This document shows positions 31,092 through 44,709 of a DNA stretch of 64,000 nucleotides, piece by piece. The notes under the pieces are model-generated. The model made no database searches, was not told where the DNA came from, and was given only the letters and a program-made list of their open reading frames with translations. Every line of letters begins with the position of its first letter. Within the stretch, counting starts at the first letter, position 1. A program made the position numbers and the translations under genes. The stretch lies in assembly GCF_053078305.1 (NCBI RefSeq), contig NZ_CP166879.1, one strand, 5' to 3'.

Positions 31092-31281
31092 ACTGCAGGC
31101 GCTGCGTCAGGCGCGCCTTGATTTATTAACCGGTAAACGGGTGGTGTCTGTCCAGAAAGATGGTCGCAGAATTGAATATACGGCGGCCTCTCTGGATGAG
31201 CTTAACCGTGCGATCAATGATGCTGAGTTGGTACTGGGGACAACCCGCCGTCGCCGTCGTCCGCTGGGAGTGAGGTTATGA
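31075..31281 (+). CDS. Head-tail joining protein (gpW-like)
   Basis: 68 aa; ...LTGKRVVSVQKDGRRIEYTAASL... Confidence 0.8.
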   Translation: MVTVAELQALRQARLDLLTGKRVVSVQKDGRRIEYTAASLDELNRAINDAELVLGTTRRRRRPLGVRL

Positions 31282-32150
31282 AACGAACGCCTGTCCTGAT
31301 TGATGTGAACGGCGTTCCGCTTCGGGAGAGCCTAAGCTACAACGGGGGCGGCGCAGGATTTGGCGGGCAAATGGCAGAGTGGTTGCCACCCTCGCAGAGT
31401 GCCGATGCGGCCCTGCTGCCCGCGTTGCGTCTGGGGAATGCCCGTGCAGATGATCTGGTGCGCAATAACGGAATAGCGGCCAATGCGGTGGCCCTGCATA
31501 AGGATCACATTGTCGGGCATATGTTTCTGATTAGCTACCGTCCGAACTGGCGCTGGCTGGGGATGCGGGAGACCGCGGCAAAAAGTTTTGTCGATGAGGT
31601 GGAGGCGGCCTGGTCAGAATACGCAGAAGGGATGTTTGGTGAGATCGACGTGGAAGGGAAACGCACGTTTACGGAATTTATCCGTGAAGGTGTGGGCGTT
31701 CATGCGTTTAACGGCGAAATCTTTGTGCAGCCGGTCTGGGATACGGAGAGCACGCAACTGTTTCGTACGCGTTTTAAAGCCGTGAGTCCGAAACGGGTGG
31801 ACACGCCAGGACACGGTATGGGGAACCGTTTTCTGCGGGCCGGTGTGGAGGTCGATCGATATGGTCGTGCCGTTGCGTACCATATCTGTGAGGATGATTT
31901 TCCTCACTCCGGGAGTGGACGATGGGAACGGATCCCGCGTGAACTTCTCACCGGGCGTCCGGCCATGCTGCATATTTTCGAGCCGGTGGAGGACGGGCAG
32001 ACCCGTGGGGCCAATCAGTTTTACAGCGTCATGGAACGGCTGAAGATGCTCGATTCCCTGCAGGCAACACAGCTTCAGTCGGCCATTGTTAAAGCCATTT
32101 ATGTCTATCATCTCCCCGTAGTTGTCCGCATCGTTCGCCAACTCCACTGA
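31278..32150 (+). pseudogene. Portal protein (gpB-like), N-terminal ~275 codons, interrupted near 32102
   Basis: Portal homology stops at ...QSAIVKAIY; the last 16 codons are read-through into inserted DNA. Confidence 0.75.
32091..32103 (+). repeat. Left att core AAAGCCATTTATG
   Basis: Direct repeat of 43930-43942 (one mismatch). Confidence 0.5.
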
Positions 32151-32225
32151 AACCCTTGCTGCGGCTGGAATGTCGTTTTCCATACTTTTGATGACCGTTC
32201 ATCACACTTCCAGGTTTTCGCGGTT

Positions 32226-32285
32226 TTGTGTATTGCAATGTGTATTGCAAATTGGCGATCGGGATGGGTGTGTATTGCAAATCTC
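32226..32285 (+). repeat. Three TGTGTATTGCAA repeats (putative integrase arm sites)
   Basis: Same motif occurs twice at 43838-43862 near the other junction. Confidence 0.4.
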
Positions 32286-32298
32286 TTGAGGGCTGTTA

Positions 32299-33540
32299 AT
32301 GGCTATTGAAAACAAACTCAGTGACAAACTGTTAAAGAGTCTTGTCGGAAAACGGCAGGACAAACAAAAAACAATAGCGGATGGGCGCGGGTTGTCTGTG
32401 CGTGTAAGCATGGTTGGGGGGATCAGCTTTGTTTTTTACTATCGTCTTGGTGGCAGGGAATCCCCTCCGGTATGGCTTACACTTGGGCGCTATCCTGATA
32501 TGTCTCTTGCAACAGCCAGGCGCATGCGTGATCAGTGCCGTGAGTGGCTGGCTGAAAATCTGGACCCCCGCAGGCAAATAAAACTTGCCGCCGAAAAAAC
32601 CATGCAACCAGTGACCGTAAGGGATGCGCTGTTTTACTGGTACGACAATCACGCCACAACAGCCAGAAAAGAGCATGAATATTTAATAAAACGATTTGAA
32701 AAGCATATCTTCCCCTATATCGGTGATATGGCTATAGAACAGTGCAAATTACACACATGGCTTGCCGTCTTTGACAGGATCAAAAAAAATGCGCCTGTTA
32801 TGTCTGGTGCAATTTTTCTTGATATCAAACAGGCGTTGCGTTTTTGTCGCGTCAGGCAATACATCGCGTGCGATCCCTTTGGCGATATTAACGTAAGTTA
32901 TGTCGGGCGCTCATCCGGTATAAGGGATCGCGTTCTTAATATCAATGAAACAGCGGATGTATGGTCTTATGCTTACGGTAATAATTTGCTGACACTGTCA
33001 TCAATACATAACAGAAGAATAATGGTTATCTGCCTGGTGTTTGGTTGCCGTCAGCAGGAGGCGAGGTTATCCACATGGGACGAATGGGATTTAAAAAACT
33101 GGGTATGGACAGTCCCAAAAGAGCACAGCAAAAACAAGGAGGCCATAGTAAGGCCTGTTCCTGACGGCATAAAACAATGGCTCGTTAATCTTTACGCAGA
33201 AACAAAAAATCGCGGTTATGTTGTCGGTTGTGCTTTGCAAAGGGCGACAATAACAGGGGCTGCAAACAGAATATGCAGGCGTCTTGGTCATGATATTAAT
33301 GGCTTGTGGTGCATACATGATTTCAGGCGCACATTTTCCACTGCGCTTAATGATATGGGGGCGGATCCTTATATTGTCGAACTTCTTTTAGGTCATAAAG
33401 TGAAAGGGGTTGCCGGTGTTTACAATAAAAGCAGGCATATAAAGAAAAAACTTGAGGTGCTTAATATGTGGGTTAATTACCTTAATACGATAGCAGGATT
33501 TAACAACAACGTTATCGAGCTTAATAAAGAGGTGGTGTGA
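32299..33540 (+). CDS. int: P4-type tyrosine integrase
   Basis: 413 aa; N-terminal LSDKLLKSL...GRGLSVRV arm-binding domain; C-terminal ...LLGHK...VYNKS. Confidence 0.85.
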   Translation: MAIENKLSDKLLKSLVGKRQDKQKTIADGRGLSVRVSMVGGISFVFYYRLGGRESPPVWLTLGRYPDMSLATARRMRDQCREWLAENLDPRRQIKLAAEKTMQPVTVRDALFYWYDNHATTARKEHEYLIKRFEKHIFPYIGDMAIEQCKLHTWLAVFDRIKKNAPVMSGAIFLDIKQALRFCRVRQYIACDPFGDINVSYVGRSSGIRDRVLNINETADVWSYAYGNNLLTLSSIHNRRIMVICLVFGCRQQEARLSTWDEWDLKNWVWTVPKEHSKNKEAIVRPVPDGIKQWLVNLYAETKNRGYVVGCALQRATITGAANRICRRLGHDINGLWCIHDFRRTFSTALNDMGADPYIVELLLGHKVKGVAGVYNKSRHIKKKLEVLNMWVNYLNTIAGFNNNVIELNKEVV

Positions 33541-33541
33541 T

Positions 33542-33799
33542 ATGGCAATTTATTCTCTTGTTGATGAAAACGATTTGCGCACAATGAAGGACATTGATCG
33601 GTTCATTCGTGAAAAAGAGTGCATAGCACTTACCACGCTGGCAAACTCAACACGCTGGAAAATGGAGCAGGCAGGTAAATTCCCGCGACGTATCAAGATC
33701 GGTGAACGTGCGGCAGGGTATCGACTTTCAGAGGTTCAGGCATGGATCCGTGGTGAGTGGCATCCTGGATGGAAACCTGGAAAAACAAAACAGCAATAA
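33542..33799 (+). CDS. alpA: AlpA-family regulator / excisionase
   Basis: 85 aa; directly after int. Confidence 0.7.
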   Translation: MAIYSLVDENDLRTMKDIDRFIREKECIALTTLANSTRWKMEQAGKFPRRIKIGERAAGYRLSEVQAWIRGEWHPGWKPGKTKQQ

Positions 33800-33853
33800 C
33801 CAGTAAATAACGCCCCTCATCAAGAGGGGTTTTTGTCTATAGGGTAAAACGCG

Positions 33854-34432
33854 ATGAATAAAAATATTGCCGTGACGGGCAAGGGGTACGCTCGTCCAGT
33901 GAAAAAATTCTGTGATATTCGTGATCTTGTCGTTCTGCGCTTTGATGGTGTGAGCGTTCGCGTGGTGTATGTGAACGGCGATCCGTGGTTTGTTGCCGTT
34001 GACGTGTGCGCTGCGCTGGAAATTGTTGATCACAAGGTTGCGTTACGCCGTCTCGATGATGATGAAAAGGGGGAGTGTTTAATACCCACCCCAGGTGGAA
34101 ATCAAACAATGCGAACGGTATGCGAGTCAGGGTTCTACAAACTAATCGCCAGAAGTCGGAAAGCTGTTACTCCTGGCACGTTCGCCCGTCGTTTCAGTAA
34201 CTGGGTATTCAGAAATGTGATACCAGGTATCAGAAAAACGGGGGCTTATGGTATCCCGTGGGGGGCATTACAGGATTTTTCCCGCCGTAAAGAGCAATAT
34301 CAAATAAGTGCCAGCGAGAAGGGGAGGGAGCTACAGGCATGTAAGCGCAAAAAACGTGAACTGGAGGAAGAAGAAAAAAGGCTGATACGTGAATATCAGC
34401 CTGAGTTTTACTTTGGTGAGCGTATTCAGTAA
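33854..34432 (+). CDS. Bro-N-domain protein (antirepressor-like)
   Basis: ...VVYVNGDPWFVAVDVCAALEI... Bro-N signature. Confidence 0.65.
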   Translation: MNKNIAVTGKGYARPVKKFCDIRDLVVLRFDGVSVRVVYVNGDPWFVAVDVCAALEIVDHKVALRRLDDDEKGECLIPTPGGNQTMRTVCESGFYKLIARSRKAVTPGTFARRFSNWVFRNVIPGIRKTGAYGIPWGALQDFSRRKEQYQISASEKGRELQACKRKKRELEEEEKRLIREYQPEFYFGERIQ

Positions 34433-34895
34433 CCACACGCGGTGCTGATTATACGGTACATCGTGTTAACCGAGAAGCTACCCACCAGCAAGGCAAAATC
34501 TTCTGCTAAAAAATGACATATGGCCAGTCGTCCGGAAAGCATGAAATTTTACAAAAATGGAAAATGAAGATTTTTATTGTGCTGGTGGGTAAAAACAAAA
34601 AGCGCCCCGTTGCCGGAGCGCCCTTGTGAACAATTAACCTGCTGCGAAAAAATTGGATCAGTGCAGGGAAATTATATCAACTGTGTGAAGAAGCGCCACA
34701 ATTGCCAGTTTAGCTTTGCGGCGAACGCGTCAATAAAGAATATTCTTTCTTTAAATTCTGTTTGTGTATTTTTTCGTAGTTTTTCGTAGTTTTTCGTAAG
34801 GAGAAAGAGCGGCGCGTATGCACCGCTAAGGAGTTTATTTTCATGACTTATGCAGCTTTCAATCTTAGCACCGCCGTAGCTGGTGGACAAGGCTA

Positions 34896-35123
34896 TCAGC
34901 CAGGCGGTCGGTTTTTAGTGGCTTTTAACCGCCGTGGGTATTTCTCGACAAAATCTTCAAGGGCAAATTTTTCTGGTGGCACTAAGCGCGGCGCTGGTGG
35001 TGGTATTTTTGTTCTGGTTAGTTCTTCCTCAAGTCTGGCGCAGGCTTCTAACTGCCTTTGCCGGATGATTTCATCATCTTGCGTTTGCGTGTCTTGTATT
35101 GGTGATAGTGTGTTGTTGGTCAT
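34896..35123 (-). CDS. Hypothetical protein
   Basis: 75 aa ORF downstream of putative repressor; weak. Confidence 0.3.
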   Translation of the reverse strand: MTNNTLSPIQDTQTQDDEIIRQRQLEACARLEEELTRTKIPPPAPRLVPPEKFALEDFVEKYPRRLKATKNRPPG

Positions 35124-35180
35124 GATACTGCCCTGTAAAGCAATGCGCCGGAGTACCTCACGCCACGGCGCTGATAGTGA

Positions 35181-35501
35181 TTATTCTGATTCTTGGGTCT
35201 TGCGACGCTGGAGTTCTTCGCGTGCAACGGTGACAAGTTGCCCGATTTCTTCCGCTGCTTTGATGCCGATTTGTTCGACCTTAGCCAGAGCATCCAGTGA
35301 AGACACAAGGGGATTTTCTCCGCTGCCTTCTGCCTGGCGGCGGGCGATTTCACCGCGCATGGCGGTTACTATGAATCCGGCGTTGCTTTCACCGTCCAGT
35401 TTTACGGATTCCATGCCTTCAATAACATCATGCGGGATCCGAGCTGTCAGTGATTGTGATTTTGCGTTTTTTGAACCTGTAGCCATCTGTAATCCTCTCA
35501 A
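35181..35501 (-). CDS. Putative satellite regulator/repressor
   Basis: 106 aa, divergent from operator-like region. Confidence 0.4.
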   Translation of the reverse strand: MRGLQMATGSKNAKSQSLTARIPHDVIEGMESVKLDGESNAGFIVTAMRGEIARRQAEGSGENPLVSSLDALAKVEQIGIKAAEEIGQLVTVAREELQRRKTQESE

Positions 35502-35683
35502 TGAAAGTGTAAGACAATATACACATAAAAAGTCTTACATAAAAGCATTGACATGTAAGCCACCTATAAATAAAGTTACTTACACCTTGTTAATGCAAGG
35601 TGCAGAAACGACGAAACCCGGCAGTGCGCTAACACTAACCGGGCTTCTAACCACCAACGATAGAAAGCGTATCGAGGTAGCTA
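35502..35683. promoter_or_regulatory. Divergent control region with palindromic TGTAAGAC/GTCTTACA operators
   Basis: tgtaagacaatatacacataaaaagtcttaca and ttgacatgtaagcc...agttacttacac. Confidence 0.4.
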
Positions 35684-36045
35684 TGAGAAATCATACCACA
35701 CACCCGCAAGGGCGGGACTCGCACAACCTGAATAAATACATCTGGCGTTTTCTGGCCCGAAAAAACCAGTTGATCGCCAGTGTCGAAAATAGCTATGATT
35801 CCCGCGCACCTCATAAAACGGGTGCCGGGATTGGCGTCCTGGGCAAAACTGAAGCGCATAACACGCGCCCCGCGTGTTTTTTTGTGCCGCATAGTCACAC
35901 CTTATCAATGGTGGGCTGTACGGGGGCGGAGCAATCCGCGCCGGTTTCTTCAGTGTCCGGTTACGCCAACCCTGTACAGTCCGCCACCAGCGAAATTGGC
36001 GTTTCCGGTGGCGGTTATCTTAACCACACTGAGGAGGCTGCCAAC
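35684..36045 (+). promoter_or_regulatory. Structured leader with terminator hairpin; homologue of rha leader at 6632-6930
   Basis: Conserved blocks plus hairpin ACACGCGccccGCGTGT followed by U7. Confidence 0.45.
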
Positions 36046-36237
36046 ATGGCTACTATCCCTACCCTTGTACATTCTCAAACCGCCTTTCTCTGGCGCTTTA
36101 TCATCTTTGGCGCGTCAGACCATCAAATCATCCACGTCACCGCCTGGACGGAACGCGAAGCGCGTAGCCGTTGCCCGTCCGGTTGTGTTGCTGTATTCGC
36201 CGCCCGTATTCGTCAGGAGGTGTGCCATGTGCAATAA
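36046..36237 (+). CDS. Small ORF sharing its first seven codons (MATIPTL) with rha
   Basis: GAGGAGG RBS; 63 aa; N-terminal nucleotides identical to rha start. Confidence 0.3.
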   Translation: MATIPTLVHSQTAFLWRFIIFGASDHQIIHVTAWTEREARSRCPSGCVAVFAARIRQEVCHVQ

Positions 36238-36484
36238 AACCACACCGGACGCAGCCGCCGCGCTCACTACACTGATGCACGCGCTGATTGATATTTCTGT
36301 TATTGCTGACAGGGCGCATAAGCACGCCACCAGTGAAACAGAATATGCCGGGGCTTTCGTTCCTCATTCGCTGGCGGTTATGCAACTTAGTGCTGATATG
36401 GCGCTGAATGAGGCCAAAGCTATCCTGATTTCTGATTGTGAAAATGGGGGGGGGTTATGCGTGATGATCGTTTTAATGCCCTGA
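36227..36484 (+). CDS. Hypothetical protein
   Basis: 85 aa, CAGGAGG RBS. Confidence 0.35.
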   Translation: MCNKTTPDAAAALTTLMHALIDISVIADRAHKHATSETEYAGAFVPHSLAVMQLSADMALNEAKAILISDCENGGGLCVMIVLMP

Positions 36485-36678
36485 AACAGGAGTTTGATGG
36501 TGCGCCTGATGATGCAGGTGATGCGCTTTCGTCAATATCCGAACTGATAAGAGTGGCCTTTTTCTTACTTGGCACGAAAGAATATAAATCAACTGGAATA
36601 GACGTACTGAATATTACTGCTGATTATGCGGAATATATGGCAGAAGTGGATTTAAGAAAGATAACGGACAGGGGGTAA
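36457..36678 (+). CDS. Hypothetical protein
   Basis: 73 aa, coupled. Confidence 0.35.
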   Translation: MRDDRFNALKQEFDGAPDDAGDALSSISELIRVAFFLLGTKEYKSTGIDVLNITADYAEYMAEVDLRKITDRG

Positions 36679-36679
36679 T

Positions 36680-36913
36680 ATGCGTGATATTTACCACGAA
36701 ACAATAGACCGCGCATTTAGTGCCCTTGCTTACGCTGAAGGTATGTACGAAATATTGCAAATGTGTCTGGAAACATTTGGCGATAATGAGCGTGATGTAA
36801 AGAAGGCGCGGATTATTAAATCACTGATAACTCTCCTTGAACCTGTAATAACAGAGTTGCAGGAAATAGACTTATTGCACGACAGATATAACGAACAGCA
36901 CACCGGAGAATAA
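36680..36913 (+). CDS. Hypothetical protein
   Basis: 77 aa, coupled. Confidence 0.4.
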   Translation: MRDIYHETIDRAFSALAYAEGMYEILQMCLETFGDNERDVKKARIIKSLITLLEPVITELQEIDLLHDRYNEQHTGE

Positions 36914-36918
36914 AAATA

Positions 36919-37218
36919 ATGAAACTTAAATATCCTGGCTTAACTGCCAGTGGCAACACTCACCCTAAATTTACGCGCGGTGATATTTACCGCGACCAGT
37001 ACGGCGGCACGGTAATGATTAAGGGCGTGGCGGGACGGTGCGTAACTTACCGCCGTGAAGGCTACGAATATGATTGCGTGATGCCTGTTTATCAGTTCCG
37101 GCGTGATTTTTCTCTGGTACAGACCGCGCCGCATAACGTGCCCACCAGCAACGCCAGGGCACGGGCAAACATCCAGAAGCTGAAAACCATGATTAACGGA
37201 TTCAGGGGTAAAAAATGA
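36919..37218 (+). CDS. Hypothetical protein
   Basis: 99 aa, stop overlaps helicase start. Confidence 0.4.
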   Translation: MKLKYPGLTASGNTHPKFTRGDIYRDQYGGTVMIKGVAGRCVTYRREGYEYDCVMPVYQFRRDFSLVQTAPHNVPTSNARARANIQKLKTMINGFRGKK

Positions 37219-38624
37219 AACTGGCACCGAACGTAAAACGATTACCGAAAGATAAATACACCGAAGCGGTTATTTTTGCGGGTATTGATGCTCACTCATT
37301 CGCAGAGCATTACATCATTGCACAGGCCAAAAAAGCAGGCGATCCAGTCCCTCCCGTTTATCTGGGGCGTTATCAGTTAAGCGAACTGGATAACCTCCAG
37401 ATTGTTGATGATGGGCGATACAGGGCGACGGTGATACGCGCCGGAAATATTGAAGAGCCGCAGCTGTTAACCATCGCCACGAAACTGGCGAGCGCCGGAG
37501 TCCAGGAGGCGCGGCTACTTTCTGAAAATTTCGAATTGCTGGAGGAATGGAGCGACCAGCTTCCACGGCTTAGGGAGGCATGGGAACGCGGGGAAAGCCT
37601 GGTCATGAAAAAAATTCCCCAGCGAAAAACCACGCTACCGATGAGCGTTGGATCTACCGGATACGACACACAGCTTGATTACGTGGTAAAGGGGATTATT
37701 CCGGCATCGTCGCTTTGCAGCATATACGGGGCGAGCGGTTCCTATAAATCATTCCTTGCCGGATCGTGGGCGTGTCACGTTTCCACGGGCCGCCAGTGGG
37801 GAGGCCGCAGGGTGGCGCATGGCGCTGTTCTCTATGTGGTTGGTGAAGGCGGTATCGGCGTTCCGCGTCGTGTAAAAGCCTGGGAGGTTGTGCACGGTGA
37901 GCAGGTGAAAAATCTGTATCTGGTAAACCGTCCCATCTTTCCGGCTGTCCCGCTTGATGTTGATGAACTGGTTATTGCTGCCAGTCAGGTGGAGAGGGAA
38001 ACGGGTAAACCTGTTCGCATGATTATTCTGGACACGCTGGCGCGTTGCTTTGGCGGCAATGATGAAAATGACTCCCGCGACATGGGGGCATTTATCCGTG
38101 GTTGTGACGAGCTTAAACGGCGCACAGGGGCTACGGTGCTGGTGGTTCACCATTCCGGCAAGGATGAAACAAAGGGGGCGCGTGGTTCCAGTGCATTTCG
38201 TGCATCACTGGACGCTGAATACCGGATACGCAGGGAGGACGCAGGAAGCGAAGCGCTGGTTATCTCATGCACCAAAATGAAGGACGCGGAGGAACTCAAA
38301 GAGGCTGCCTATGATTTGCGGGTGGTGGAGCTTTTTACCGACGCTGACGGGGAGTTAATTACGTCGCTGGTGGTGGTGGATAAGCCGCGCCCTCCCGTTG
38401 AACTGGAGCGCATCGAGGAGGCAGGCAACAAGACGGAAAACCATACCGCGCTATGGGGGTGCATCCGTTCACGCACACAGAACGGCGACAAGTGCACGAT
38501 CCCGCTGTTACGTGACGATATGAAAAAGCTGGGGTATGACACAAAACACCTTAAACGATGGTTAGCCAAACTGGAAAAAGACGACGTGATCTACATTGAC
38601 GGTGATGATGTAGGACCACTGTAA
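37215..38624 (+). CDS. Replicative ATPase/helicase (RecA/DnaB-like NTPase domain)
   Basis: 469 aa; Walker A GASGSYKS, Walker B ILDTL, ...VVHHSGKDETKGARGSSA... Confidence 0.75.
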   Translation: MKLAPNVKRLPKDKYTEAVIFAGIDAHSFAEHYIIAQAKKAGDPVPPVYLGRYQLSELDNLQIVDDGRYRATVIRAGNIEEPQLLTIATKLASAGVQEARLLSENFELLEEWSDQLPRLREAWERGESLVMKKIPQRKTTLPMSVGSTGYDTQLDYVVKGIIPASSLCSIYGASGSYKSFLAGSWACHVSTGRQWGGRRVAHGAVLYVVGEGGIGVPRRVKAWEVVHGEQVKNLYLVNRPIFPAVPLDVDELVIAASQVERETGKPVRMIILDTLARCFGGNDENDSRDMGAFIRGCDELKRRTGATVLVVHHSGKDETKGARGSSAFRASLDAEYRIRREDAGSEALVISCTKMKDAEELKEAAYDLRVVELFTDADGELITSLVVVDKPRPPVELERIEEAGNKTENHTALWGCIRSRTQNGDKCTIPLLRDDMKKLGYDTKHLKRWLAKLEKDDVIYIDGDDVGPL

Positions 38625-38826
38625 AAAGTGGGCATTAAAAGTGGGAAAGGTGGGCGATTTAACGTAATTTTAACAAAATCACCCACTTTCCCACGTGTAT
38701 ATATCCCAAAAAGTGGGCACTAAAAAAATACCTATGAAACAAGATGATATAAATCCCAAACTTCCCACGTTGGACGAAGTGGGAAAACGTAAAAAGTGGG
38801 CGAAAAAAGTGGGTAGAGGTGGGCGA
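38625..38826 (+). repeat. Iteron array (AAGTGGG-type repeats), putative satellite ori
   Basis: About nine AAGTGGG / CCCACTT copies immediately downstream of helicase gene. Confidence 0.5.
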
Positions 38827-39078
38827 ATGACTCAAAAACACAGAGACAGAACAGAGCCAAAATATAAAGCGTTAGACATGACAGAGCACGCTTTAAAGGT
38901 GGCAATCAGGGTAATAGACCGCCACACGCGGGAAGGATACGCGAAGGAACATCCCGACCTGATAAGCGCATTCATGACCACAGCGGCGGCAAACTTTGCC
39001 ACGCTGACAGAACGGGAGATAGCCGAAGCGGAACAGGTAACAACCATCAACGTTAAAACCGGAGAGGTGGAATCATGA
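38827..39078 (+). CDS. Hypothetical protein
   Basis: 83 aa from MTQKHRDR; upstream part of tracked ORF lies on iterons and is rejected. Confidence 0.35.
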   Translation: MTQKHRDRTEPKYKALDMTEHALKVAIRVIDRHTREGYAKEHPDLISAFMTTAAANFATLTEREIAEAEQVTTINVKTGEVES

Positions 39079-39485
39079 CAGCACAGATAGCCGCTTACGG
39101 GCGGCTGGTGGACGACCCGCAGGTAAAACAAACCAGCAAGGGCACACCGATGACGCTGGCGCGTATGGCGGTATCTCTGCCATGCAGCCAGGCACAGGAC
39201 GGGCAGGCTACGTTATGGCTATCAGTGATGGCATTTGGTAAGCAGGCCGACTTCCTGGCTAAACATCAAAAAGGCGATGTTGCCAGCGTATCCGGCACGA
39301 TGCAGGTAAGCCAGTGGACCAGACAGAACGGGGAAACGCGGCAGGGTTATCAGGTTATTGCAGACAGTGTAATCAGTGCCCGTGCTGCCCGTCCTGGCGG
39401 GAGCAGACGTACAACCACAGGCACACAGGGTAATCAGCCACCAGCGGGAGGCGATGACCCTTACGGTGACGGTATTCCGTTCTGA
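39075..39485 (+). CDS. SSB-like single-strand DNA-binding protein
   Basis: OB-fold-like N-terminus, Gly/Pro-rich tail ending DDPYGDGIPF. Confidence 0.55.
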   Translation: MTAQIAAYGRLVDDPQVKQTSKGTPMTLARMAVSLPCSQAQDGQATLWLSVMAFGKQADFLAKHQKGDVASVSGTMQVSQWTRQNGETRQGYQVIADSVISARAARPGGSRRTTTGTQGNQPPAGGDDPYGDGIPF

Positions 39486-39495
39486 GGGGGTGACG

Positions 39496-39768
39496 ATGGT
39501 ACATGACCGCATAGCGGAGGAACTCGAGGCAAAAGGCTTTTACCGGAGGGCGGCGGCGCGATGGGGTGAAGTTATGCAGCTGGTGGAGACAGACAAGGAA
39601 CGGCATCAGGTTACGATGCGACGGCTGGAATGTTCCAGGAAGGCACAGAGGCCACCGGAGCCGCCGGATAACTTCGGAGACCTGAAAAAAGCAGTAGATC
39701 GCACTTATGCCGAAATGGGTATGGATGGTGTAAGCGATGAAATATGGCGTAATTACCCAGACAGCTAA
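39496..39768 (+). CDS. Hypothetical protein
   Basis: 90 aa, GAGGGGG RBS. Confidence 0.35.
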   Translation: MVHDRIAEELEAKGFYRRAAARWGEVMQLVETDKERHQVTMRRLECSRKAQRPPEPPDNFGDLKKAVDRTYAEMGMDGVSDEIWRNYPDS

Positions 39769-39774
39769 TCAACA

Positions 39775-39846
39775 GCCGGAGAAATCCGGCTTTTTTGTAC
39801 CCAAAAAAAGCCCGATAAGTACAGGAGGCATCTTATCGGGCTTTTG
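39775..39846 (+). terminator. Two tandem intrinsic terminators ending the replication operon
   Basis: GCCGGAGAAATCCGGC+U6 and GCCCGATAAG...CTTATCGGGC+U4. Confidence 0.5.
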
Positions 39847-40007
39847 CATATGAGGTTTTTTTGGTGCACTGACACACATGATCGGGGTAATCATTTCATA
39901 ATTTGCAACACAACTCAACATCATTGCACAAAATGCAATCCTGATTATAATCAGAGCTGGATGAACATCCAGTTCTGATTTTTTAAGTCAAAGAGGAATT
40001 TCTTACT

Positions 40008-40214
40008 ATGGCTGAAGAGAAAAAAGGCGGTGTTTCGGTGTACATAAGCCCCGAAATCGTGGAGGTGCTCAAGCAGCGCCACAAAAAAAACTATGAGGCT
40101 GGCGTAGCGGCTGGACTGGATCCGCTGATGACGCCGGAGCCGTCGATAGGTTCACTTGTGCGCTCTTATTTACTTGCGGCGCTTGGGATGCATAAAAATT
40201 ATGGTGGTGAATAA
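40008..40214 (+). CDS. Hypothetical protein preceding capsid gene
   Basis: 68 aa, AGAGGAA RBS. Confidence 0.4.
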   Translation: MAEEKKGGVSVYISPEIVEVLKQRHKKNYEAGVAAGLDPLMTPEPSIGSLVRSYLLAALGMHKNYGGE

Positions 40215-41269
40215 TGACAGTAAAAGCAATGGCACTTACAACTAACCAGCTTTTCGCGTACCTGAATCGCGGGGATATTGCAGAATTTAAATTCAGTCCG
40301 CTGTTTACCACGCTGTTTTTCCCGAACGTGGCGACCTTCAACACCCAGAACATCATGCTGGACACCCTGGACATTGAAGAGGTTACGATGTCAGCGTTCT
40401 GTTCGCCTATGGTGGGTAGTCAGGTCCAGCGCGATAAAGGGTACGAAACCAGCACGATTAAACCAGGCTACATGAAACCCAAACACGAAATCGATCCAAC
40501 AAAAACCATCATGCGCATGGCTGGAGAAGATCCGGCACAGCTTAACGACCCTACCTACCGCCGTATGCGCCTGATTACTGGCAACATGCGCCGCCAGATA
40601 AACGCCATTAAAGCGCGCGTGGAATGGCTGGCGGTGAATGCGATAACGACCGGAAAAAACATCATTGAGGGCGAAGGCATAGAACGCTATGAAATCGACT
40701 GGAAAATACCGGAAAACTGCATCATAGAGCAGGCCAAGGGTAAAAAATGGTCCGAGCATGATAAAGATATTTACGATCCAATCTATGACATCGAACTATA
40801 CGCAGATCAGGCAGGTTGCCCCGCCAACGTCATGATTATGGGCGCTGAGGTATGGCGCACGTTACGCAGCTTTAAAAAATTCCGCGAACTGTACGATCTT
40901 TCCCGTGGTTCAGAATCCGCCGCAGAACTGGCCTGTAAAAACCTGGGTGAAGTAGTGAGCTTTAAAGGCTATCTGGGCGATATTGCCCTTATCGTCTATT
41001 CCGGCAAATACACTGACAGCGACGGTACCGAAAAATATTTCCTTGAGCCTGATTTGCTGGTCCTGGGTAACACCAACAATAAAGGGCTGGTGGCCTATGG
41101 TGCGATTATGGATCAGGAAGCGGTAAGAACGGGCGCAACGCAAAACATGTTCTACCCGAAAAACTGGATTGAAGACGGCGATCCGGCGATTGAGTACGTT
41201 CAGACGCACAGCGCACCGCAGCCGGTACCGGCAGATATTCGCAAATTTGTTACCGTCAAAATTGCTTAA
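40214..41269 (+). CDS. Major capsid protein paralog (gpE-like) encoded by satellite
   Basis: Shares blocks PGYMKPKHE, GEDPAQLNDP.YRR, VVSFKGY.GD.A.VV, DGTEKY with prophage E at 46646. Confidence 0.8.
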   Translation: MTVKAMALTTNQLFAYLNRGDIAEFKFSPLFTTLFFPNVATFNTQNIMLDTLDIEEVTMSAFCSPMVGSQVQRDKGYETSTIKPGYMKPKHEIDPTKTIMRMAGEDPAQLNDPTYRRMRLITGNMRRQINAIKARVEWLAVNAITTGKNIIEGEGIERYEIDWKIPENCIIEQAKGKKWSEHDKDIYDPIYDIELYADQAGCPANVMIMGAEVWRTLRSFKKFRELYDLSRGSESAAELACKNLGEVVSFKGYLGDIALIVYSGKYTDSDGTEKYFLEPDLLVLGNTNNKGLVAYGAIMDQEAVRTGATQNMFYPKNWIEDGDPAIEYVQTHSAPQPVPADIRKFVTVKIA

Positions 41270-41280
41270 CGGGGGATTCT

Positions 41281-41616
41281 ATGGACACTCCATACATTGA
41301 GTTATTTGCAGGCAGTCAGCAGGTATCCACGACGCTGGTACATTTTGCCGCTGATGCTGGCGTTATTCAGGAATTTACCCCGCTGATGCTGGCGGACAAT
41401 GGCGAGTTTAAGCCGTGGGATGGTCAGGAATCTGGCAAGGCTGTTTATCTGACCTCGTACCCCGTGGACACGTCAAAGCAGAAATCAGCACAGTGTTACA
41501 AGACGGGGATATTTAATATCGCCGCCGTAAACTGGCCTGAGAGCGCCGACACTGACGCGAAAAAATGCGCCGCCTTTGCGGGTTCTGGCGTATCCGTTCA
41601 GCCGCTGGCGCGATAA
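41281..41616 (+). CDS. Head decoration protein paralog (gpD-like)
   Basis: 111 aa; TPLMLADNG..KPWDGQ and YKTGIF motifs shared with prophage D. Confidence 0.7.
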   Translation: MDTPYIELFAGSQQVSTTLVHFAADAGVIQEFTPLMLADNGEFKPWDGQESGKAVYLTSYPVDTSKQKSAQCYKTGIFNIAAVNWPESADTDAKKCAAFAGSGVSVQPLAR

Positions 41617-41628
41617 GCAGGGGAAACG

Positions 41629-42042
41629 ATGGCAACGAATGAAAGCATCATGGCGCTACCGCTGGCGAGTAAATTTAAAGCAGAAGCGCGGGCAATGGCT
41701 GACAGAGGTTTATCAACCTACGAGGCCGTATATCAACTCAACAAACTGGAAGAGCAGGACAAGCCGCGCGCTGATGCGATTATGGCGCTTCATGAACATA
41801 ACGACTATCAGCCGCTGTTACGTGCAATGGCAAACGTGCCATGTATTAGCGTCGATAATGCTCGTGAAATCCTGAACATGACCATAGAGCAGGAGCGCCC
41901 AAAGGTTGCGCCGGAGCTTACCGCAGCCTTTGAAAACTTTATGGACATGCACAGCCCGAAAGCCGTATCACCCGGCATGGCATACGACGGCAGAAACCAG
42001 GGCGATGAAGGCGACGTCGATCGCATACTGAAAACCATCTGA
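41629..42042 (+). CDS. Scaffold-like protein (Nu3-like C-terminus)
   Basis: C-terminus ...AAFENFMDMHSPKAV... parallels prophage C/Nu3 tail ...ALFEHFMANHSPAAV... Confidence 0.5.
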   Translation: MATNESIMALPLASKFKAEARAMADRGLSTYEAVYQLNKLEEQDKPRADAIMALHEHNDYQPLLRAMANVPCISVDNAREILNMTIEQERPKVAPELTAAFENFMDMHSPKAVSPGMAYDGRNQGDEGDVDRILKTI

Positions 42043-42072
42043 CATAAGGCCGGAGAAATCCGGCTTTTTTTA

Positions 42073-42150
42073 CGGGTCCTTTCCGGCATATGGACCCGTT
42101 ACGGGGCGGCGACCTCGCGGTTTTTCGCTATTTATGAGCTTTTTTCGGGT
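42073..42150 (+). other. Satellite cos site (cosN 42104-42115)
   Basis: About 48 bp identical to prophage cos (GGGTCCTTTCCGGCATATGGACCCGTTACGGGGCGGCGACCTCGCGG), then divergent. Confidence 0.65.
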
Positions 42151-42236
42151 GCTGGTGGTGGTTTTGTTGTTCGCTCTATCTCTATGAATAAAAAGGGAAA
42201 GATAAAACCAATACACCAACCTGAAACATTACTTAA

Positions 42237-42791
42237 GTGGGGATATTGATGAAATCGCACCTGATGAACAAAAAAAACATGGCGCAAAGCTGCCGTGTAA
42301 GTGCGACAGCGTTCGACAAGTGGGGAGTGACTCCCGTTGAACGTAAAGGACGCGAGGCTTTTTACGATGTTGCCAGCGTGATAGACAATCGGGTAAGCAA
42401 TGCAATTAACCAGGTTACAAACGACAAAGGCGAGATTGATGATGATGAACTCTTACGAGTCAGGATCAGATTACTGACCGCCCAGGCTGAGGCGCAGGAA
42501 CTTAAAAACGAGCGCGATCGCGGTGACGTAATTGATACTGAGTTTTGCCTGTACGCGCTTTCAAAGCTGGCGAGTCAGATTTCTTCAATCATGGACAGTT
42601 TGCCGCTTACCATGCAAAGGCGCTTCCCGCAGATTACTCCCGCTATGCTGGATGGGCTTAAAAGGGAAGTGGTTAAAGCCTGTAATGCCAGTGCCACAGT
42701 TGCCGACAACCTCCCGAAGATACTGGCTGATTACCTGATGGAAACTACCGGAGACGTACCGGAGAAGTTGCTACAGAAGAAAGGCGAGTAA
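42237..42791 (+). CDS. Terminase small subunit homolog (Nu1-like; possible packaging redirector)
   Basis: ...FCLYALSKLASQISSIMDSLPLTMQRRFPQI... parallels Nu1. Confidence 0.65.
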   Translation: MGILMKSHLMNKKNMAQSCRVSATAFDKWGVTPVERKGREAFYDVASVIDNRVSNAINQVTNDKGEIDDDELLRVRIRLLTAQAEAQELKNERDRGDVIDTEFCLYALSKLASQISSIMDSLPLTMQRRFPQITPAMLDGLKREVVKACNASATVADNLPKILADYLMETTGDVPEKLLQKKGE

Positions 42792-42959
42792 CAGACGCGC
42801 AATTATTGAACAAAAGTAAGGCCCGACATGAAATCACCCAAAAATGCCTTTTTCATGCGTTTGTATGTCTGACCTTTTACGGTTTCGATATTATAAAAAA
42901 CAAATAGTTACGCTCGAGAGGTACCGACACGCATTTTTCAGGAAAATTTTCATAAACAG

Positions 42960-43020
42960 ATAAAAACCGCGAGGTCGCCGCCCCGTAACGGGCCATAATT
43001 CCAGGAAGGACCCGACGACA
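42960..43020 (-). other. Second, inverted cos-like site (cosN complement 42972-42983)
   Basis: Minus strand reads CCCGTTACGGGGCGGCGACCTCGCGG...TTTATGAAAATTTTCC. Confidence 0.5.
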
Positions 43021-43047
43021 CCAGGCTATCAGAACGATGAGGGCACA

Positions 43048-43329
43048 ATGACAGAAGCCGAACTACTGGGATTAATCCGCTACGTTACCGGAATCAGCCA
43101 GCAGCATGACGAACAGGCCACGCAGCCGGACAGCGTGACCGCTGAAAATTATGCGCGTGTTGTTGCTGAGGTGATGCGCCGTGATGGTATCCAGCTTAAT
43201 GATGCAGATATGCGCGACATACGGATCCGCGTTCTTGAAATGCTGGCCTACCGTCGCCGCGTGCAGACGTACAGGGAAAAAGCAAAAATAACGTACCAGT
43301 GGAAGAAGCCGGAGCGATTACGGCGGTAA
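43048..43329 (+). CDS. Hypothetical protein
   Basis: 93 aa. Confidence 0.35.
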   Translation: MTEAELLGLIRYVTGISQQHDEQATQPDSVTAENYARVVAEVMRRDGIQLNDADMRDIRIRVLEMLAYRRRVQTYREKAKITYQWKKPERLRR

Positions 43330-43929
43330 CTTGCTGATATTCCCGATAACGCAAAATTGCGCTCTGTCCTAACCCGTTGATATTTTCGGGAACAGCCAAC
43401 GGCTGAGGCCGGAACAACGATTATCTTTCAGATAGTCAGAGCTACGAAATTTTCGTAGTTTAATTACTCGCCAGTTTATCGTTAACTCGTTGATATTTTC
43501 GGTAACCTCAATTTGAGGAGATCGGAAACATAACCCTTCACATTCTGAATGGTTATAATGACCACTCAGACCATCAAGGCAACCATAACGAACATCGTTA
43601 CGGTTGGAGCTTTTACCCCACTGGGGGGAAGGTGCACATCTGGATCATCATTACCGTGATCAAGGGTATGTAAAACCCACCAGCCTGATTAACTGTTAAC
43701 CGGAAAAAAGCCAGGTAGCCAATCTCGATATGGGGATCCCCATATCGACATTAACGCCCCCTAGAACTGCGCATATCTGCATATAAAAACATCCACCAGC
43801 TTTATGACGGATGCCGCTCATCTGATAAATAATCGTGTATTGCAATGTGTATTGCGACTCCTTTAAACGATAGGTTTGAGCATTCGTAATGTACTGTTTT
43901 TAAATTTTATTTTTTCCTGTCTTTTCATA

Positions 43930-43942
43930 AAAGCCATGTATG
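43930..43942 (+). repeat. Right att core AAAGCCATGTATG
   Basis: Direct repeat of 32091-32103. Confidence 0.5.
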
Positions 43943-44709
43943 CAGCGACGATTGAAAGTGAACTTGATACCGAAAAGGCCTTTGAATATATCGCCGGTGC
44001 GCCGCAGGGGCAGAAGGATAATCCGCTTATTAATATTCTGGATAAGTTCTCCACCTGGTATGACACGAATATCGTGACGCTGGGCGGTGTCAAAATTCCG
44101 CACCTTTTCCCCGGTGATGATCTGAAACTTCAGACCGCGCAGGATTCAGACAATGGATTTTCGGCGCTTGAACAGGCGCTGCTGCGGTATATCGCCGCCG
44201 GTCTTGGCGTTTCCTACGAACAGTTGTCCCGTGATTACTCGAAGGTCAGTTATTCAAGTGCCCGCGCCTCCGCCAATGAGTCGTGGCGCTATTTTATGGG
44301 ACGACGAAAATTTATTGCAGCCCGGCTGGCCACGCAGATGTTTTCCTGCTGGCTGGAAGAGGCACTTCTTCGGGGGATTATCCGTCCGCCACGGGCACGT
44401 TTTGATTTTTATCAGGCGCGTTCAGCCTGGTCGCGGGCAGAGTGGATTGGCGCAGGAAGAATGGCCATTGACGGGCTCAAGGAGGTCCAGGAATCAGTGA
44501 TGCGCATTGAGGCCGGACTGAGCACGTATGAGAAAGAGCTGGCGCTGATGGGTGAGGATTATCAGGACATTTTCCGCCAGCAGGTCAGGGAATCCGCAGA
44601 GCGGGAAAAAGCCGGACTCTCACGTCCGGTGTGGATAGCGCAGGCGTATCAGCAGCAGATAGCAGAGAGCCGCAGGCCGGAAGAGGAGACAACACCACGT
44701 GAGACGTAA
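43930..44709 (+). pseudogene. Portal protein (gpB-like), C-terminal ~256 codons
   Basis: Resumes at ...AATIESELDTEKAFEYIAGAPQGQ...; the tracked ORF start at 43876 lies in inserted DNA. Confidence 0.75.

What the first reader, a model, noticed from the sequence alone, without database searches (positions are those of the whole stretch)
37215..38830. Replicative helicase followed by an AAGTGGG iteron array (putative satellite ori)
About nine AAGTGGG / CCCACTT repeats are packed into ~200 bp directly after the helicase gene, the usual position of satellite origins. The tracked ORF 38695-39078 partly overlies the array, so its 5' part is probably not coding.
Basis: partly seen in the sequence, partly recalled or inferred. 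Interest (0 to 1): 0.45.

Follow-up and report, generated by a model that had tools for sequence, protein, structure and literature searches.

The report
Replication origin of a phage satellite
The repeat array after the helicase gene is very probably the replication origin of a small phage-parasitic island embedded in an E. coli prophage. This kind of origin is already known, but relatives suggest that one amino acid of the helicase decides which repeat sequence it recognises.

Summary
The 202-bp gap 38625-38826 after the helicase gene (37215-38624) holds 7 exact AAGTGGG, 9 A[A/G]GTGGG and 11 GTGGG cores. About 0.02-0.3 are expected by chance.

The region lies in an ~11.8-kb phage-inducible chromosomal island (PICI) inserted in the portal gene of a lambdoid prophage.

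The gene encodes an RSF1010-RepA-like helicase with a predicted C-terminal winged-helix domain. About 160 related loci carry a repeat array in the same place, and the repeat word changes with the helicase allele.

One residue at the start of the predicted recognition helix tracks the base after AAGTG:
- His goes with G (43/43).
- Asn goes with A (37/37).
- Lys goes with G (15/15).
- Ser or Gly goes with C (6/6).

The layout is iteron sets flanking AT-rich spacers directly 3' of rep. It matches the origin published for SaPIs and Gram-negative PICIs.

Only EcCICFT073 has been tested experimentally. Its Rep is an unrelated D5-type helicase and its iterons differ (GGTAGAC).

The locus is a new member of a known kind. 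Origin function and the residue-base rule are inferred, not tested.

The 5' part of ORF 38695-39078 is not coding. The real start is ATG 38827.

The parts
37215..38624 (+). rep: 469-aa initiator-helicase. It has an N-terminal domain of unknown function (aa ~16-124), a RecA-fold RepA/AAA_25 ATPase core (aa ~143-390; invariant Walker A K178/S179, D273, H312-H313-S-G-K316) and a C-terminal winged-helix domain (aa ~399-469).
   Evidence: Pfam AAA_25 E 6.5e-44. The only PDB sequence relative is the RSF1010 RepA helicase 1G8Y, E 1.8e-8. AlphaFold model with pLDDT 77. Invariant columns.
38409..38621 (+). Codons for the C-terminal winged-helix domain. The predicted recognition helix is aa 443-455 (38541-38579). 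The His445 codon CAC is at 38547-38549.
   Evidence: Full model: H408-422, H429-438, H443-455, strands 459-462 and 465-468. Domain-only model: pLDDT 88, pTM 0.78. Foldseek matches are winged-helix DNA binders (Fur, MepR/MarR, ArsR, DtxR, LexA, ORC WH, DnaD-N) with TM 0.6-0.75 but weak E-values. Residue 445 co-varies with the iteron base.
38626..38654 (+). Left iteron cluster of three direct sites: AAGTGGG 38626-38632, AAGTGGG 38639-38645, AGGTGGG 38648-38654.
   Evidence: The first two sites are position-conserved across 10 aligned alleles.
38655..38680 (.). First AT-rich spacer (77% AT), flanked by iterons that point towards each other.
   Evidence: The flanking arms can pair as a hairpin; the single-strand DNA fold has z -4.4.
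38682..38696 (-). Two inverted iterons: CCCACTT 38682-38688 (exact AAGTGGG on the - strand) and CCCACGT 38690-38696 (ACGTGGG on the - strand).
   Evidence: The C.CACTTT columns are invariant. Position 38683 switches C/T with the His/Asn alleles.
38693..38703 (.). Conserved non-iteron box AC(G/C)TGTATA(T/C)A. Its role is unknown.
   Evidence: Invariant columns. It is also present in the Klebsiella element with TAAGTGCGGCA iterons and, more loosely, in Yokenella.
38711..38717 (+). Central direct iteron AAGTGGG.
   Evidence: Position 38716 switches G/A with the His/Asn alleles.
38718..38760 (.). Central A-rich, AT-rich spacer (74% AT). It is the candidate DNA-unwinding region.
   Evidence: It ranks about 4th-5th least stable among non-overlapping 30-60-bp stretches in the 11.8-kb element.
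38764..38770 (-). Degenerate inverted iteron CCCACGT (ACGTGGG on the - strand).
   Evidence: It is not position-conserved in other alleles.
38777..38823 (+). Right iteron cluster of four direct sites: AAGTGGG 38777, 38794 and 38807, and AGGTGGG 38817. The last site overlaps the Shine-Dalgarno-like GAGGTG of the next gene.
   Evidence: Position 38799 switches G/A with the His/Asn alleles.
38827..39078 (+). Conserved 83-aa ORF of unknown function (phrog_1231). This is the true start; the GTG-38695 extension is not coding.
   Evidence: DNA homology to EcCICFT073 resumes at 38875.
39075..39485 (+). Satellite-encoded single-strand DNA-binding protein, part of the replication zone.
   Evidence: Pfam SSB E 3e-17.
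32091..32103 (.). attL core AAAGCCATTTATG of the satellite, inside the lambdoid portal gene.
   Evidence: The portal N-terminal fragment matches Phage_portal_2 positions 2-241.
43930..43942 (.). attR core AAAGCCATGTATG.
   Evidence: An intact portal gene with a single copy of the core is seen in E. coli 2015C-3121.

Best explanation
The gap 38625-38826 is the replication origin of a helper-embedded PICI (window ~32104-43929), and the upstream gene is its initiator-helicase. Shown: the repeat cluster, the domain make-up of Rep, the conserved position of the array, and the co-variation between one Rep residue and one iteron base. Inferred, by analogy with SaPI Rep and the EcCICFT073 rep-ori test: (1) After induction, Rep's C-terminal winged-helix domains bind the AAGTGGG iterons. 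These lie as three direct sites, an AT-rich spacer, two inverted sites, one central site, a second AT-rich spacer, and four to five sites on the right. (2) The bound subunits assemble into RepA-like hexamers on either side of AT-rich DNA, melt it, and load themselves as the replicative helicase without a separate loader. (3) Priming is done by a host or helper primase, because this Rep lacks the Zn-ribbon/Toprim primase that is fused to the same core in Xenorhabdus and Serratia relatives. The satellite's own SSB coats the unwound strands. (4) Origin specificity is set largely by residue 445 at the N-terminus of the recognition helix. His (or Lys) reads G, Asn reads A, and Ser or Gly go with C at the base following the invariant AAGTG. 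Invariant K444, R448, W449 and K452 would read the constant half.
For: Cluster statistics. Rep is a RepA-family helicase. Winged-helix C-terminus. An array sits directly after the stop codon in most of the 80 loci from genome contigs and 80 from viral contigs, with lineage-specific words: AAGTGGG, AAGTGGGGA, AAGTGAGGA, AAGTGGGGGA, TAAGTGCGGCA, AAGTGCGC. Among 125 distinct Rep proteins the residue-base match is His-G 43/43, Asn-A 37/37, Lys-G 15/15, Ser-C 4/4 and Gly-C 2/2; in the other 24 the repeat could not be called. The residue changes about 19 times on the ATPase-core tree. Pairs such as L092/L093 differ only at V/M and H/N in the last 45 residues, yet have GTGGGGA versus GTGAGGA iterons. 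L153/L154 differ only at H/N and G/R in the last 40 residues, with iteron consensuses of the G and A types. In 68 distinct E. coli-type gaps (39 His, 29 Asn) the only columns fixed-different are that one base in five iterons: 38631, 38644, 38683, 38716, 38799. The iterons travel with Rep, not with the downstream genes. Against EcCICFT073, DNA homology breaks at 37291 and resumes at 38875; that element has a D5-type Rep and GGTAGAC iterons but the same downstream genes. AT-rich spacers. Published precedent: PICI origins lie immediately 3' of rep with two iteron sets flanking an AT-rich region, and EcCICFT073 rep-ori supports plasmid replication (PMC6092414). SaPI Rep binds its downstream iterons through a C-terminal winged-helix domain and self-loads (PMC9371898). 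A 17-kb Klebsiella element with this replicon type is deposited as a circular plasmid.
Against: This Rep family and its iterons have not been tested experimentally. The tested EcCICFT073 replicon shares only the N-terminal 125 aa. The recognition-helix codons lie about 50-80 bp from the first iteron, so part of the co-variation could be linkage rather than function. The concerted change of every iteron, and its recurrence in distant genera, argues against linkage alone. The AT-rich spacers are among the least stable stretches of the element but are not the single least stable one. Winged-helix fold matches have weak E-values of 0.06-0.3. No protein-DNA complex was modelled, so contact of residue 445 with the base is inferred. 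In about a fifth of the distant loci the repeat word could not be called.
Confidence: 0.85

Rival explanations
1. The repeats are operator sites for a transcription factor, possibly Rep acting as an autoregulator, or AlpA or PerC. They would control the downstream operon (83-aa ORF, ssb, perC, capsid genes) and would not be an origin.
For: The last sites abut the start codon and Shine-Dalgarno region of the next gene. A conserved TGTATA box resembles a -10-like element. Iteron-binding initiators often also autoregulate.
Against: No sigma-70 promoter-like or terminator-like site was found in 38400-39100. Gram-negative PICIs are described as transcribed in one direction (PMC6092414). The repeat word follows the Rep allele while the downstream genes stay the same. 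AlpA and PerC are encoded far from the array. A secondary regulatory role is not excluded and would be compatible with origin function.
Confidence: 0.08
2. The array is a packaging (cos/pac) site or a partition site for the satellite.
For: Satellites need a packaging signal, and repeat arrays occur in centromere-like sites.
Against: The sequence shared with the prophage region upstream of terS (the expected cos region) lies elsewhere, at 42067-42149, with an inverted copy at 42941-43015. No ParA/ParB-like gene turned up in the element ORFs that were scanned. The array co-varies with the helicase and not with TerS.
Confidence: 0.03
3. The array is a chance or low-complexity repeat with no function.
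For: The heptamer is short, and across the whole window its count is not significantly enriched (13 against 8.1 expected).
Against: Seven of the 13 copies lie in 202 bp (P about 1e-16). Iteron positions are conserved across alleles while the spacers diverge. All copies change together with the Rep allele.
Confidence: 0.01

Closest known systems
Replication origins of Gram-negative PICIs (Fillol-Salom et al. 2018, ISME J, PMC6092414): EcCICFT073 rep-ori, and listed relatives such as EcCI11128
   Same: The element type, gene order and origin position are the same: DUF4222, rep, ori, small ORF, ssb, perC, capsid E/D homologues. Iteron sets flank AT-rich DNA. EcCI11128, listed in that paper's Table S1, carries a RepA-family helicase (KHF motif) and an AAAGTGGGGA array with the same layout.
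   Different: The replicon that was tested (EcCICFT073) has a D5_N/DUF5906/Pox_D5 (P4-family, SF3) Rep and GGTAGAC iterons. It shares only the N-terminal 125 aa (47% identity) with the window's Rep. The AAGTGGG allele and the RepA-type initiator have not been tested, as far as the searchable literature shows.
SaPI Rep self-loading helicases and SaPI ori (Qiao et al. 2022, PMC9371898, and work cited there)
   Same: The initiator and the helicase are one protein. A C-terminal winged-helix domain reads short iterons. Six to twelve iterons lie immediately downstream of rep, around an AT-rich centre, with sites in opposite orientations.
   Different: SaPI Reps have AAA+ (SF3/MCM-like) cores. This Rep has a RecA-fold RepA/SF4-type core. 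The similarity is one of architecture, not of family.
RSF1010/IncQ RepA helicase and oriV
   Same: The ATPase core is homologous. 1G8Y is the only PDB sequence match (E 1.8e-8).
   Different: From general knowledge of IncQ plasmids: iteron binding there is done by a separate protein (RepC) at 20-bp iterons, priming is done by RepB' at ssi hairpins, and RepA has no winged-helix domain. Here the helicase itself carries the predicted DNA-binding domain.
T7 gp4-like / primase-helicase fusions in related satellites (Xenorhabdus, Serratia, Pectobacterium loci)
   Same: They have the same AAA_25 core, C-terminal winged helix and downstream AAGTG-type iterons.
   Different: Those proteins carry an N-terminal Zn-ribbon plus Toprim primase. 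The window's Rep has instead a 125-aa domain of unknown function that it shares with EcCICFT073 Rep.
Helper-embedded PICIs (Tommasini, Mageeney and Williams 2023, PMC10111431)
   Same: The satellite is integrated, co-oriented, inside a lambdoid late gene. The interrupted portal fragment ends at position 241 of Pfam Phage_portal_2, which matches their site name B:Phage_portal_2:241. C4/isrK RNAs lie in the Bro zone.
   Different: That paper places 'primase, SSB, DUF5906' in the replication zone. It does not mention iterons, AAA_25 or a RepA-type helicase in its main text.

Membership tests
Gram-negative PICI replication origin | Lies immediately 3' of the replication initiator gene | tested here: met
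   The array starts 2 nt after the rep stop codon. Related loci have it in the same position.
Gram-negative PICI replication origin | Two sets of short iterons flank an AT-rich region | tested here: met
   Left cluster 38626-38654, right cluster 38777-38823, AT-rich spacers of 77% and 74% AT.
Gram-negative PICI replication origin | Located in a PICI: int, alpA, genes in one direction, ~10-12 kb, own att sites, phage-derived capsid or packaging genes | tested here: met
   Integrase, AlpA, Bro-N, PerC, capsid E, decoration D and Nu1-like TerS, all on the + strand. The element is 11.8 kb between 13-bp att cores.
Gram-negative PICI replication origin | Supports Rep-dependent autonomous replication | not testable with these tools
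   Shown only for EcCICFT073, which has a different Rep (PMC6092414). A related Klebsiella element is deposited as a circular plasmid, which is only circumstantial.
SaPI-type Rep (AAA+ self-loading helicase) | AAA+ / SF3-MCM-like ATPase core | tested here: not met
   The core is AAA_25, a RecA fold. Matches are RSF1010 RepA, KaiC and RAD51.
SaPI-type Rep (AAA+ self-loading helicase) | C-terminal winged-helix domain that recognises iterons downstream of rep | tested here: inconclusive
   The winged-helix fold is predicted with pLDDT 88, and residue 445 co-varies with the iteron base. Binding was not tested.
IncQ (RSF1010) RepA/oriV replicon | RepA-family hexameric helicase | tested here: met
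   Profile match to 1G8Y, E 1.8e-8. The hexameric state was not tested.
IncQ (RSF1010) RepA/oriV replicon | Separate iteron-binding initiator (RepC) and dedicated primase (RepB') acting at ssi sites | tested here: not met
   No other replication initiator or primase domain was found in the element's ORFs. The DNA-binding domain is part of the helicase.
Helper-embedded PICI | Integrated within, and co-oriented with, a late gene of a lambdoid prophage, with att repeats that restore the gene on excision | tested here: met
   The portal gene is split at 32103/43930 with core AAAGCCAT[G/T]TATG. An intact portal gene is seen in E. coli 2015C-3121.

The most novel reading that the evidence does not exclude
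A single residue at the N-terminus of the winged-helix recognition helix (His445 here) sets which iteron allele this helicase-initiator fires. His or Lys would read G, Asn would read A, and Ser or Gly would go with C at the base after AAGTG. Nature would then have produced a series of near-identical replicons that may be mutually orthogonal, switched by one amino acid together with a concerted change of all iterons. This RepA(SF4)-winged-helix fusion would be a second, independently evolved class of self-loading initiator-helicase alongside the AAA+ SaPI Reps.
Probability: 0.55. Interest if true: 0.55.

Novelty: new member of a known kind. Interest (0 to 1): 0.35.

Why it matters
The comparison adds three points.

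- E. coli PICIs use at least two unrelated initiator-helicases (D5/SF3-type and RepA/SF4-type) in the same genomic slot. The helicase core and its origin are exchanged together as one cassette.
- The RepA-type replicon is widespread: similar DNA occurs in 1585 of 5426 complete E. coli genomes, and relatives occur across Enterobacterales.
- It gives a simple, testable rule for origin specificity, one residue matched to one base. That rule could explain how satellite replicons diversify, and it could supply orthogonal replication modules.

Tried and rejected
- **Phage collection.** A megablast search found no close DNA match. The element is chromosomal/prophage-borne, and only distant helicase cores occur in phages.
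- **Promoter and terminator scan of the gap.** Nothing found.
- **Rfam scan of the element.** Nothing credible in the array (a mir-7 hit at E 0.37 is noise). It did find C4/isrK RNAs upstream.
- **RNA-leader idea.** The RNA fold has z -2.4 and the bottom-strand DNA fold z -4.4. This is explained by the inverted iterons and is not independent evidence for a structured RNA.
- **Literature search for AAGTGGG iterons.** No relevant paper found. The iteron sequences in Fig. 2a of PMC6092414 are not held as text, so I cannot say whether this exact word was drawn there.
- **E. coli ED1a record.** Not in the collection.
- **Incompatibility hypothesis.** I asked whether iteron diversification serves compatibility between co-resident satellites. 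Several genomes carry two or three copies with the same allele, so this is not supported.
- **N-terminal domain.** No Pfam or NCBIfam match. Alignment shows at least two unrelated N-terminal domain families among relatives. Its function remains unknown.
- **TGTATA box as a LexA box.** Only a half-site matches, so this was rejected.
Full report
**1. Observation**

ORF 37215-38624 encodes a 469-aa protein with a strong Pfam AAA_25 match (E 6.5e-44). The 202-bp gap that follows (38625-38826) contains:
- Exact AAGTGGG at 38626, 38639, 38711, 38777, 38794 and 38807 on the + strand, and at 38682-38688 on the - strand.
- AGGTGGG at 38648 and 38817.
- ACGTGGG on the - strand at 38690-38696 and 38764-38770.

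That is 7 exact heptamers, 9 A[A/G]GTGGG and 11 GTGGG cores. The remaining 63.8 kb has 6 exact heptamers, so 0.019 are expected per 202 bp (Poisson P 1.7e-16). No other 202-bp window holds more than 4 cores.

**2. Genomic context**

The locus lies in an ~11.8-kb insert (about 32104-43929) bounded by a 13-bp direct repeat, AAAGCCAT[G/T]TATG, at 32091-32103 and 43930-43942. The insert splits the portal gene of a lambdoid prophage.
- The flanks are contiguous, with an intact portal gene, in E. coli 2015C-3121.
- The N-terminal portal fragment ends at position 241 of Pfam Phage_portal_2.

All genes of the insert are on the + strand:
- a tyrosine integrase, AlpA and a Bro-N protein;
- C4 and isrK-type RNAs at 35806-35991;
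- DUF4222, the helicase, the repeat array and an 83-aa ORF;
- SSB, PerC, lambda E- and D-like capsid proteins and a Nu1-like small terminase.

This is the gene order of Gram-negative PICIs such as EcCICFT073 (PMC6092414). Integration inside a prophage late gene is the 'helper-embedded PICI' configuration. The site matches the name B:Phage_portal_2:241 used by Tommasini et al. 2023 (PMC10111431).

Similar DNA occurs in 1585 of 5426 complete E. coli genomes and in none of the deposited phage genomes.

**3. The protein**

A profile of 37 relatives finds only one solved relative, the RSF1010 RepA hexameric helicase 1G8Y (E 1.8e-8). Fold search of the model returns RecA-fold ATPases, namely KaiC, RAD51/RadA and RepA 1NLF. 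The AlphaFold model (pLDDT 77) has three parts:
- an N-terminal alpha/beta domain (aa 16-124);
- the ATPase core (aa ~143-390);
- a C-terminal three-helix bundle plus beta-hairpin: H408-422, H429-438, H443-455, strands 459-462 and 465-468.

Modelled alone with 45 sequences, the C-terminal domain reaches pLDDT 88 and pTM 0.78. It resembles winged-helix DNA binders (Fur, MepR, ArsR, DtxR, LexA, ORC WH, DnaD-N) with TM 0.6-0.75, though the E-values are weak.

In Xenorhabdus and Serratia the same core and C-terminus are fused to a Zn-ribbon/Toprim primase. The window's protein has no primase domain.

**4. The array belongs to the helicase**

I fetched 80 loci from one-genome-per-species contigs and 80 from IMG/VR, plus a few by exact protein look-up.

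Most loci where downstream sequence could be scored have a short repeat array directly after the helicase stop codon; the repeat word could be called for 101 of 125 distinct proteins. The word differs between lineages:
- AAGTGGG (this allele);
- AAGTGGGGA and AAGTGAGG(A) (other E. coli and Salmonella alleles);
- AAGTGAGGA (Xenorhabdus, and an Oceanospirillaceae MAG);
- AAGTGGGGGA (Serratia, Pectobacterium, Yersinia and others);
- TAAGTGCGGCA (Kosakonia, Enterobacter soli, Phytobacter, Klebsiella);
- AAGTGCGC(A) (Hafnia, Yokenella).

An alignment of ten E. coli/Salmonella alleles shows the iteron positions conserved while the spacers diverge.

Against EcCICFT073, DNA homology stops at 37291 and resumes at 38875. 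Between those points EcCICFT073 has a different initiator (D5_N/DUF5906/Pox_D5, P4-family primase C-terminal domain). It also has different iterons, GGTAGAC/GTCTACC. Its flanking genes, including the 83-85-aa ORF and ssb, are homologous to the window's.

The two initiators share only the N-terminal 125 residues (47% identity). So the helicase core and the array are exchanged as one cassette, and the repeats go with the initiator rather than with the downstream genes.

**5. Co-variation**

The C-terminal helix carries the motif K-X-[F/L/M]-x-R-W-L (window T443-K-H-L-K-R-W-L450). X (residue 445) tracks the base that follows the invariant AAGTG, which is position 6 of the heptamer. Among 125 distinct proteins:

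| Residue X | Base after AAGTG | Matches |
|---|---|---|
| His | G | 43/43 |
| Asn | A | 37/37 |
| Lys | G | 15/15 |
| Ser | C | 4/4 |
| Gly | C | 2/2 |

In the remaining 24 proteins the repeat could not be called.

- The residue changes about 19 times on a tree built from the ATPase core.
- His and Asn both occur in at least three otherwise near-identical C-terminal backgrounds...RWLAKLE......RWLYKLE... and ...RWLGKLE....
- L092 and L093 differ only at V/M and H/N in the last 45 residues, yet have GTGGGGA versus GTGAGGA iterons.
- In 68 distinct E. coli-type gaps (39 His, 29 Asn), the only alignment columns fixed-different between the two classes are that one base in five iterons. In window coordinates these are 38631, 38644, 38683, 38716 and 38799.
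- The published PICI EcCI11128 (KHF motif, AAAGTGGGGA iterons) and the Klebsiella element pKp_Goe_795-4 (KSF motif, TAAGTGCGGCA iterons) fit the rule.
- A second, weaker association links Phe versus Leu/Met at residue 446 with a 3' ...GGA extension of the iteron.
- The pairings agree with common amino-acid/base preferences (Asn with adenine; His and Lys with guanine). That point rests on established knowledge and was not tested here.

One caveat applies. The codons lie only about 50-80 bp from the first iteron, so linkage contributes to the association. The concerted change of every iteron, and its recurrence in distant genera, is hard to explain by linkage alone.

**6. Architecture and likely mechanism**

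The sites run in this order:
- three direct iterons (38626-38654);
- a 26-bp spacer, 77% AT;
- two inverted iterons (38682-38696);
- a conserved AC(G/C)TGTATA(T/C)A box (38693-38703);
- one direct iteron (38711);
- a 43-bp A-rich spacer, 74% AT (38718-38760);
- one degenerate inverted site (38764);
- four direct iterons (38777-38823).

The convergent iterons around the first spacer give the single strands marked hairpin potential (DNA z -4.4). SaPI origins likewise have iterons in opposite orientations on each side of an AT-rich centre (PMC9371898).

My best reading (confidence 0.85) is that Rep binds the iterons through its winged helix and assembles into hexamers. It then melts an AT-rich spacer and loads itself. 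A host or helper primase does the priming, and the satellite SSB assists. These steps are inferred from SaPI Rep and from the EcCICFT073 plasmid-rescue experiment. They are not shown for this protein.

**7. Rivals**

- *Operator array.* No promoter-like or terminator-like site lies in the gap, and the repeats follow the Rep allele rather than the downstream genes. A secondary autoregulatory role, or an influence on the adjacent ribosome-binding site, remains possible.
- *Packaging site.* This is unlikely. The sequence shared with the prophage's cos-proximal region lies at 42067-42149, with an inverted copy at 42941-43015.
- *Chance.* Excluded.

**8. The overlapping ORF**

The mechanical ORF 38695-39078 starts at a GTG inside the array.
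- RefSeq annotates the homologue from the ATG equivalent to 38827, giving 83 aa.
- Six of ten relatives have in-frame stops 1-2 codons upstream of that ATG.
- Homology to EcCICFT073 begins only at 38875.

**9. Comparison and novelty**

The kind of feature is known. PICI origins immediately 3' of rep, with iteron sets flanking AT-rich DNA, were described in 2018. At least one listed PICI (EcCI11128) has this Rep family and this layout. Helper-embedded PICIs, the portal site and the C4/isrK RNAs are also published.

What I did not find in the searchable literature:
- an experimental test of the RepA-type replicon;
- a statement that E. coli PICIs use two unrelated helicase superfamilies in the same slot;
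- the residue-base rule.

I file the locus as a new member of a known kind. It works like a SaPI/PICI origin, but its initiator is not a member of the SaPI AAA+ Rep family, and the replicon is not an IncQ-type one.

**10. Limits**

All functional statements are inferences from sequence, models and comparison. Figure 2a of PMC6092414, which shows iteron sequences, is not available as text. The function of the N-terminal domain and of the conserved TGTATA box is unexplained.

Noticed in passing
window 31278-32150 and 43876-44709; att cores 32091-32103 and 43930-43942: The satellite is inserted inside the portal gene of a lambdoid prophage, with core AAAGCCAT[G/T]TATG. [quoted passage not shown] In E. 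coli AREA_492 (L175) a related satellite instead splits the large terminase gene.
   Followed up: yes
window 35806-35882 and 35904-35991 (+): Rfam finds isrK (66 bits) and C4 antisense RNA (77.6 bits), both above their gathering scores. They lie inside the mechanical 464-aa ORF 34843-36237, which also carries the Pfam Phage_ASH match. That long ORF is therefore probably not one real gene. This looks like a P4-type immunity RNA region, as Tommasini et al. noted for PICIs.
   Followed up: partly
window 38693-38703: A box AC(G/C)TGTATA(T/C)A just after the inverted iterons is invariant across E. coli and Salmonella alleles. It is also present in a Klebsiella element with quite different iterons. 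It does not depend on iteron specificity and its role is unknown. It is only a LexA half-site and not a DnaA box.
   Followed up: partly
window 37215-37590 (Rep aa 1-125); L084 9242-9620: The N-terminal ~125-aa domain is shared (47% identity) between the RepA/SF4-type Rep here and the D5/SF3-type Rep of EcCICFT073. It also occurs on DUF927, DUF5906 and primase proteins on Klebsiella and Arsenophonus plasmids. It is a mobile module of unknown function, with no Pfam or NCBIfam match.
   Followed up: partly
window 42067-42149 and 42941-43015: Two ~80-bp segments, in opposite orientations, are 84% identical to the region just upstream of terS in a related lambdoid prophage (E. coli 2015C-3121, L083 ~1950-2032; the equivalent window coordinates were not mapped). 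They are probably satellite copies of the helper cos region, flanking the Nu1-like gene 42237-42791.
   Followed up: partly
L176 (CP018459.1, K. pneumoniae pKp_Goe_795-4, 16,971 bp, circular): A record deposited as a plasmid is in fact a satellite-like element. It carries an integrase, a RepA-type Rep with TAAGTGCGGCA iterons, capsid, adaptor and terminase genes, and a tape-measure gene. This suggests an excised, possibly replicating, circular form.
   Followed up: partly
L094 and L095 (IMG genome 2617271340): One genome carries two copies of a Rep 100% identical to the window's, on separate prophage-sized contigs. Co-resident satellites can therefore share the same origin allele.
   Followed up: no
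window 19758-20009: A tRNA-Met, tRNA-Arg, tRNA-Arg cluster lies in the prophage part of the window. This is typical of the late-regulatory region of lambdoid (Stx-type) prophages.
   Followed up: no
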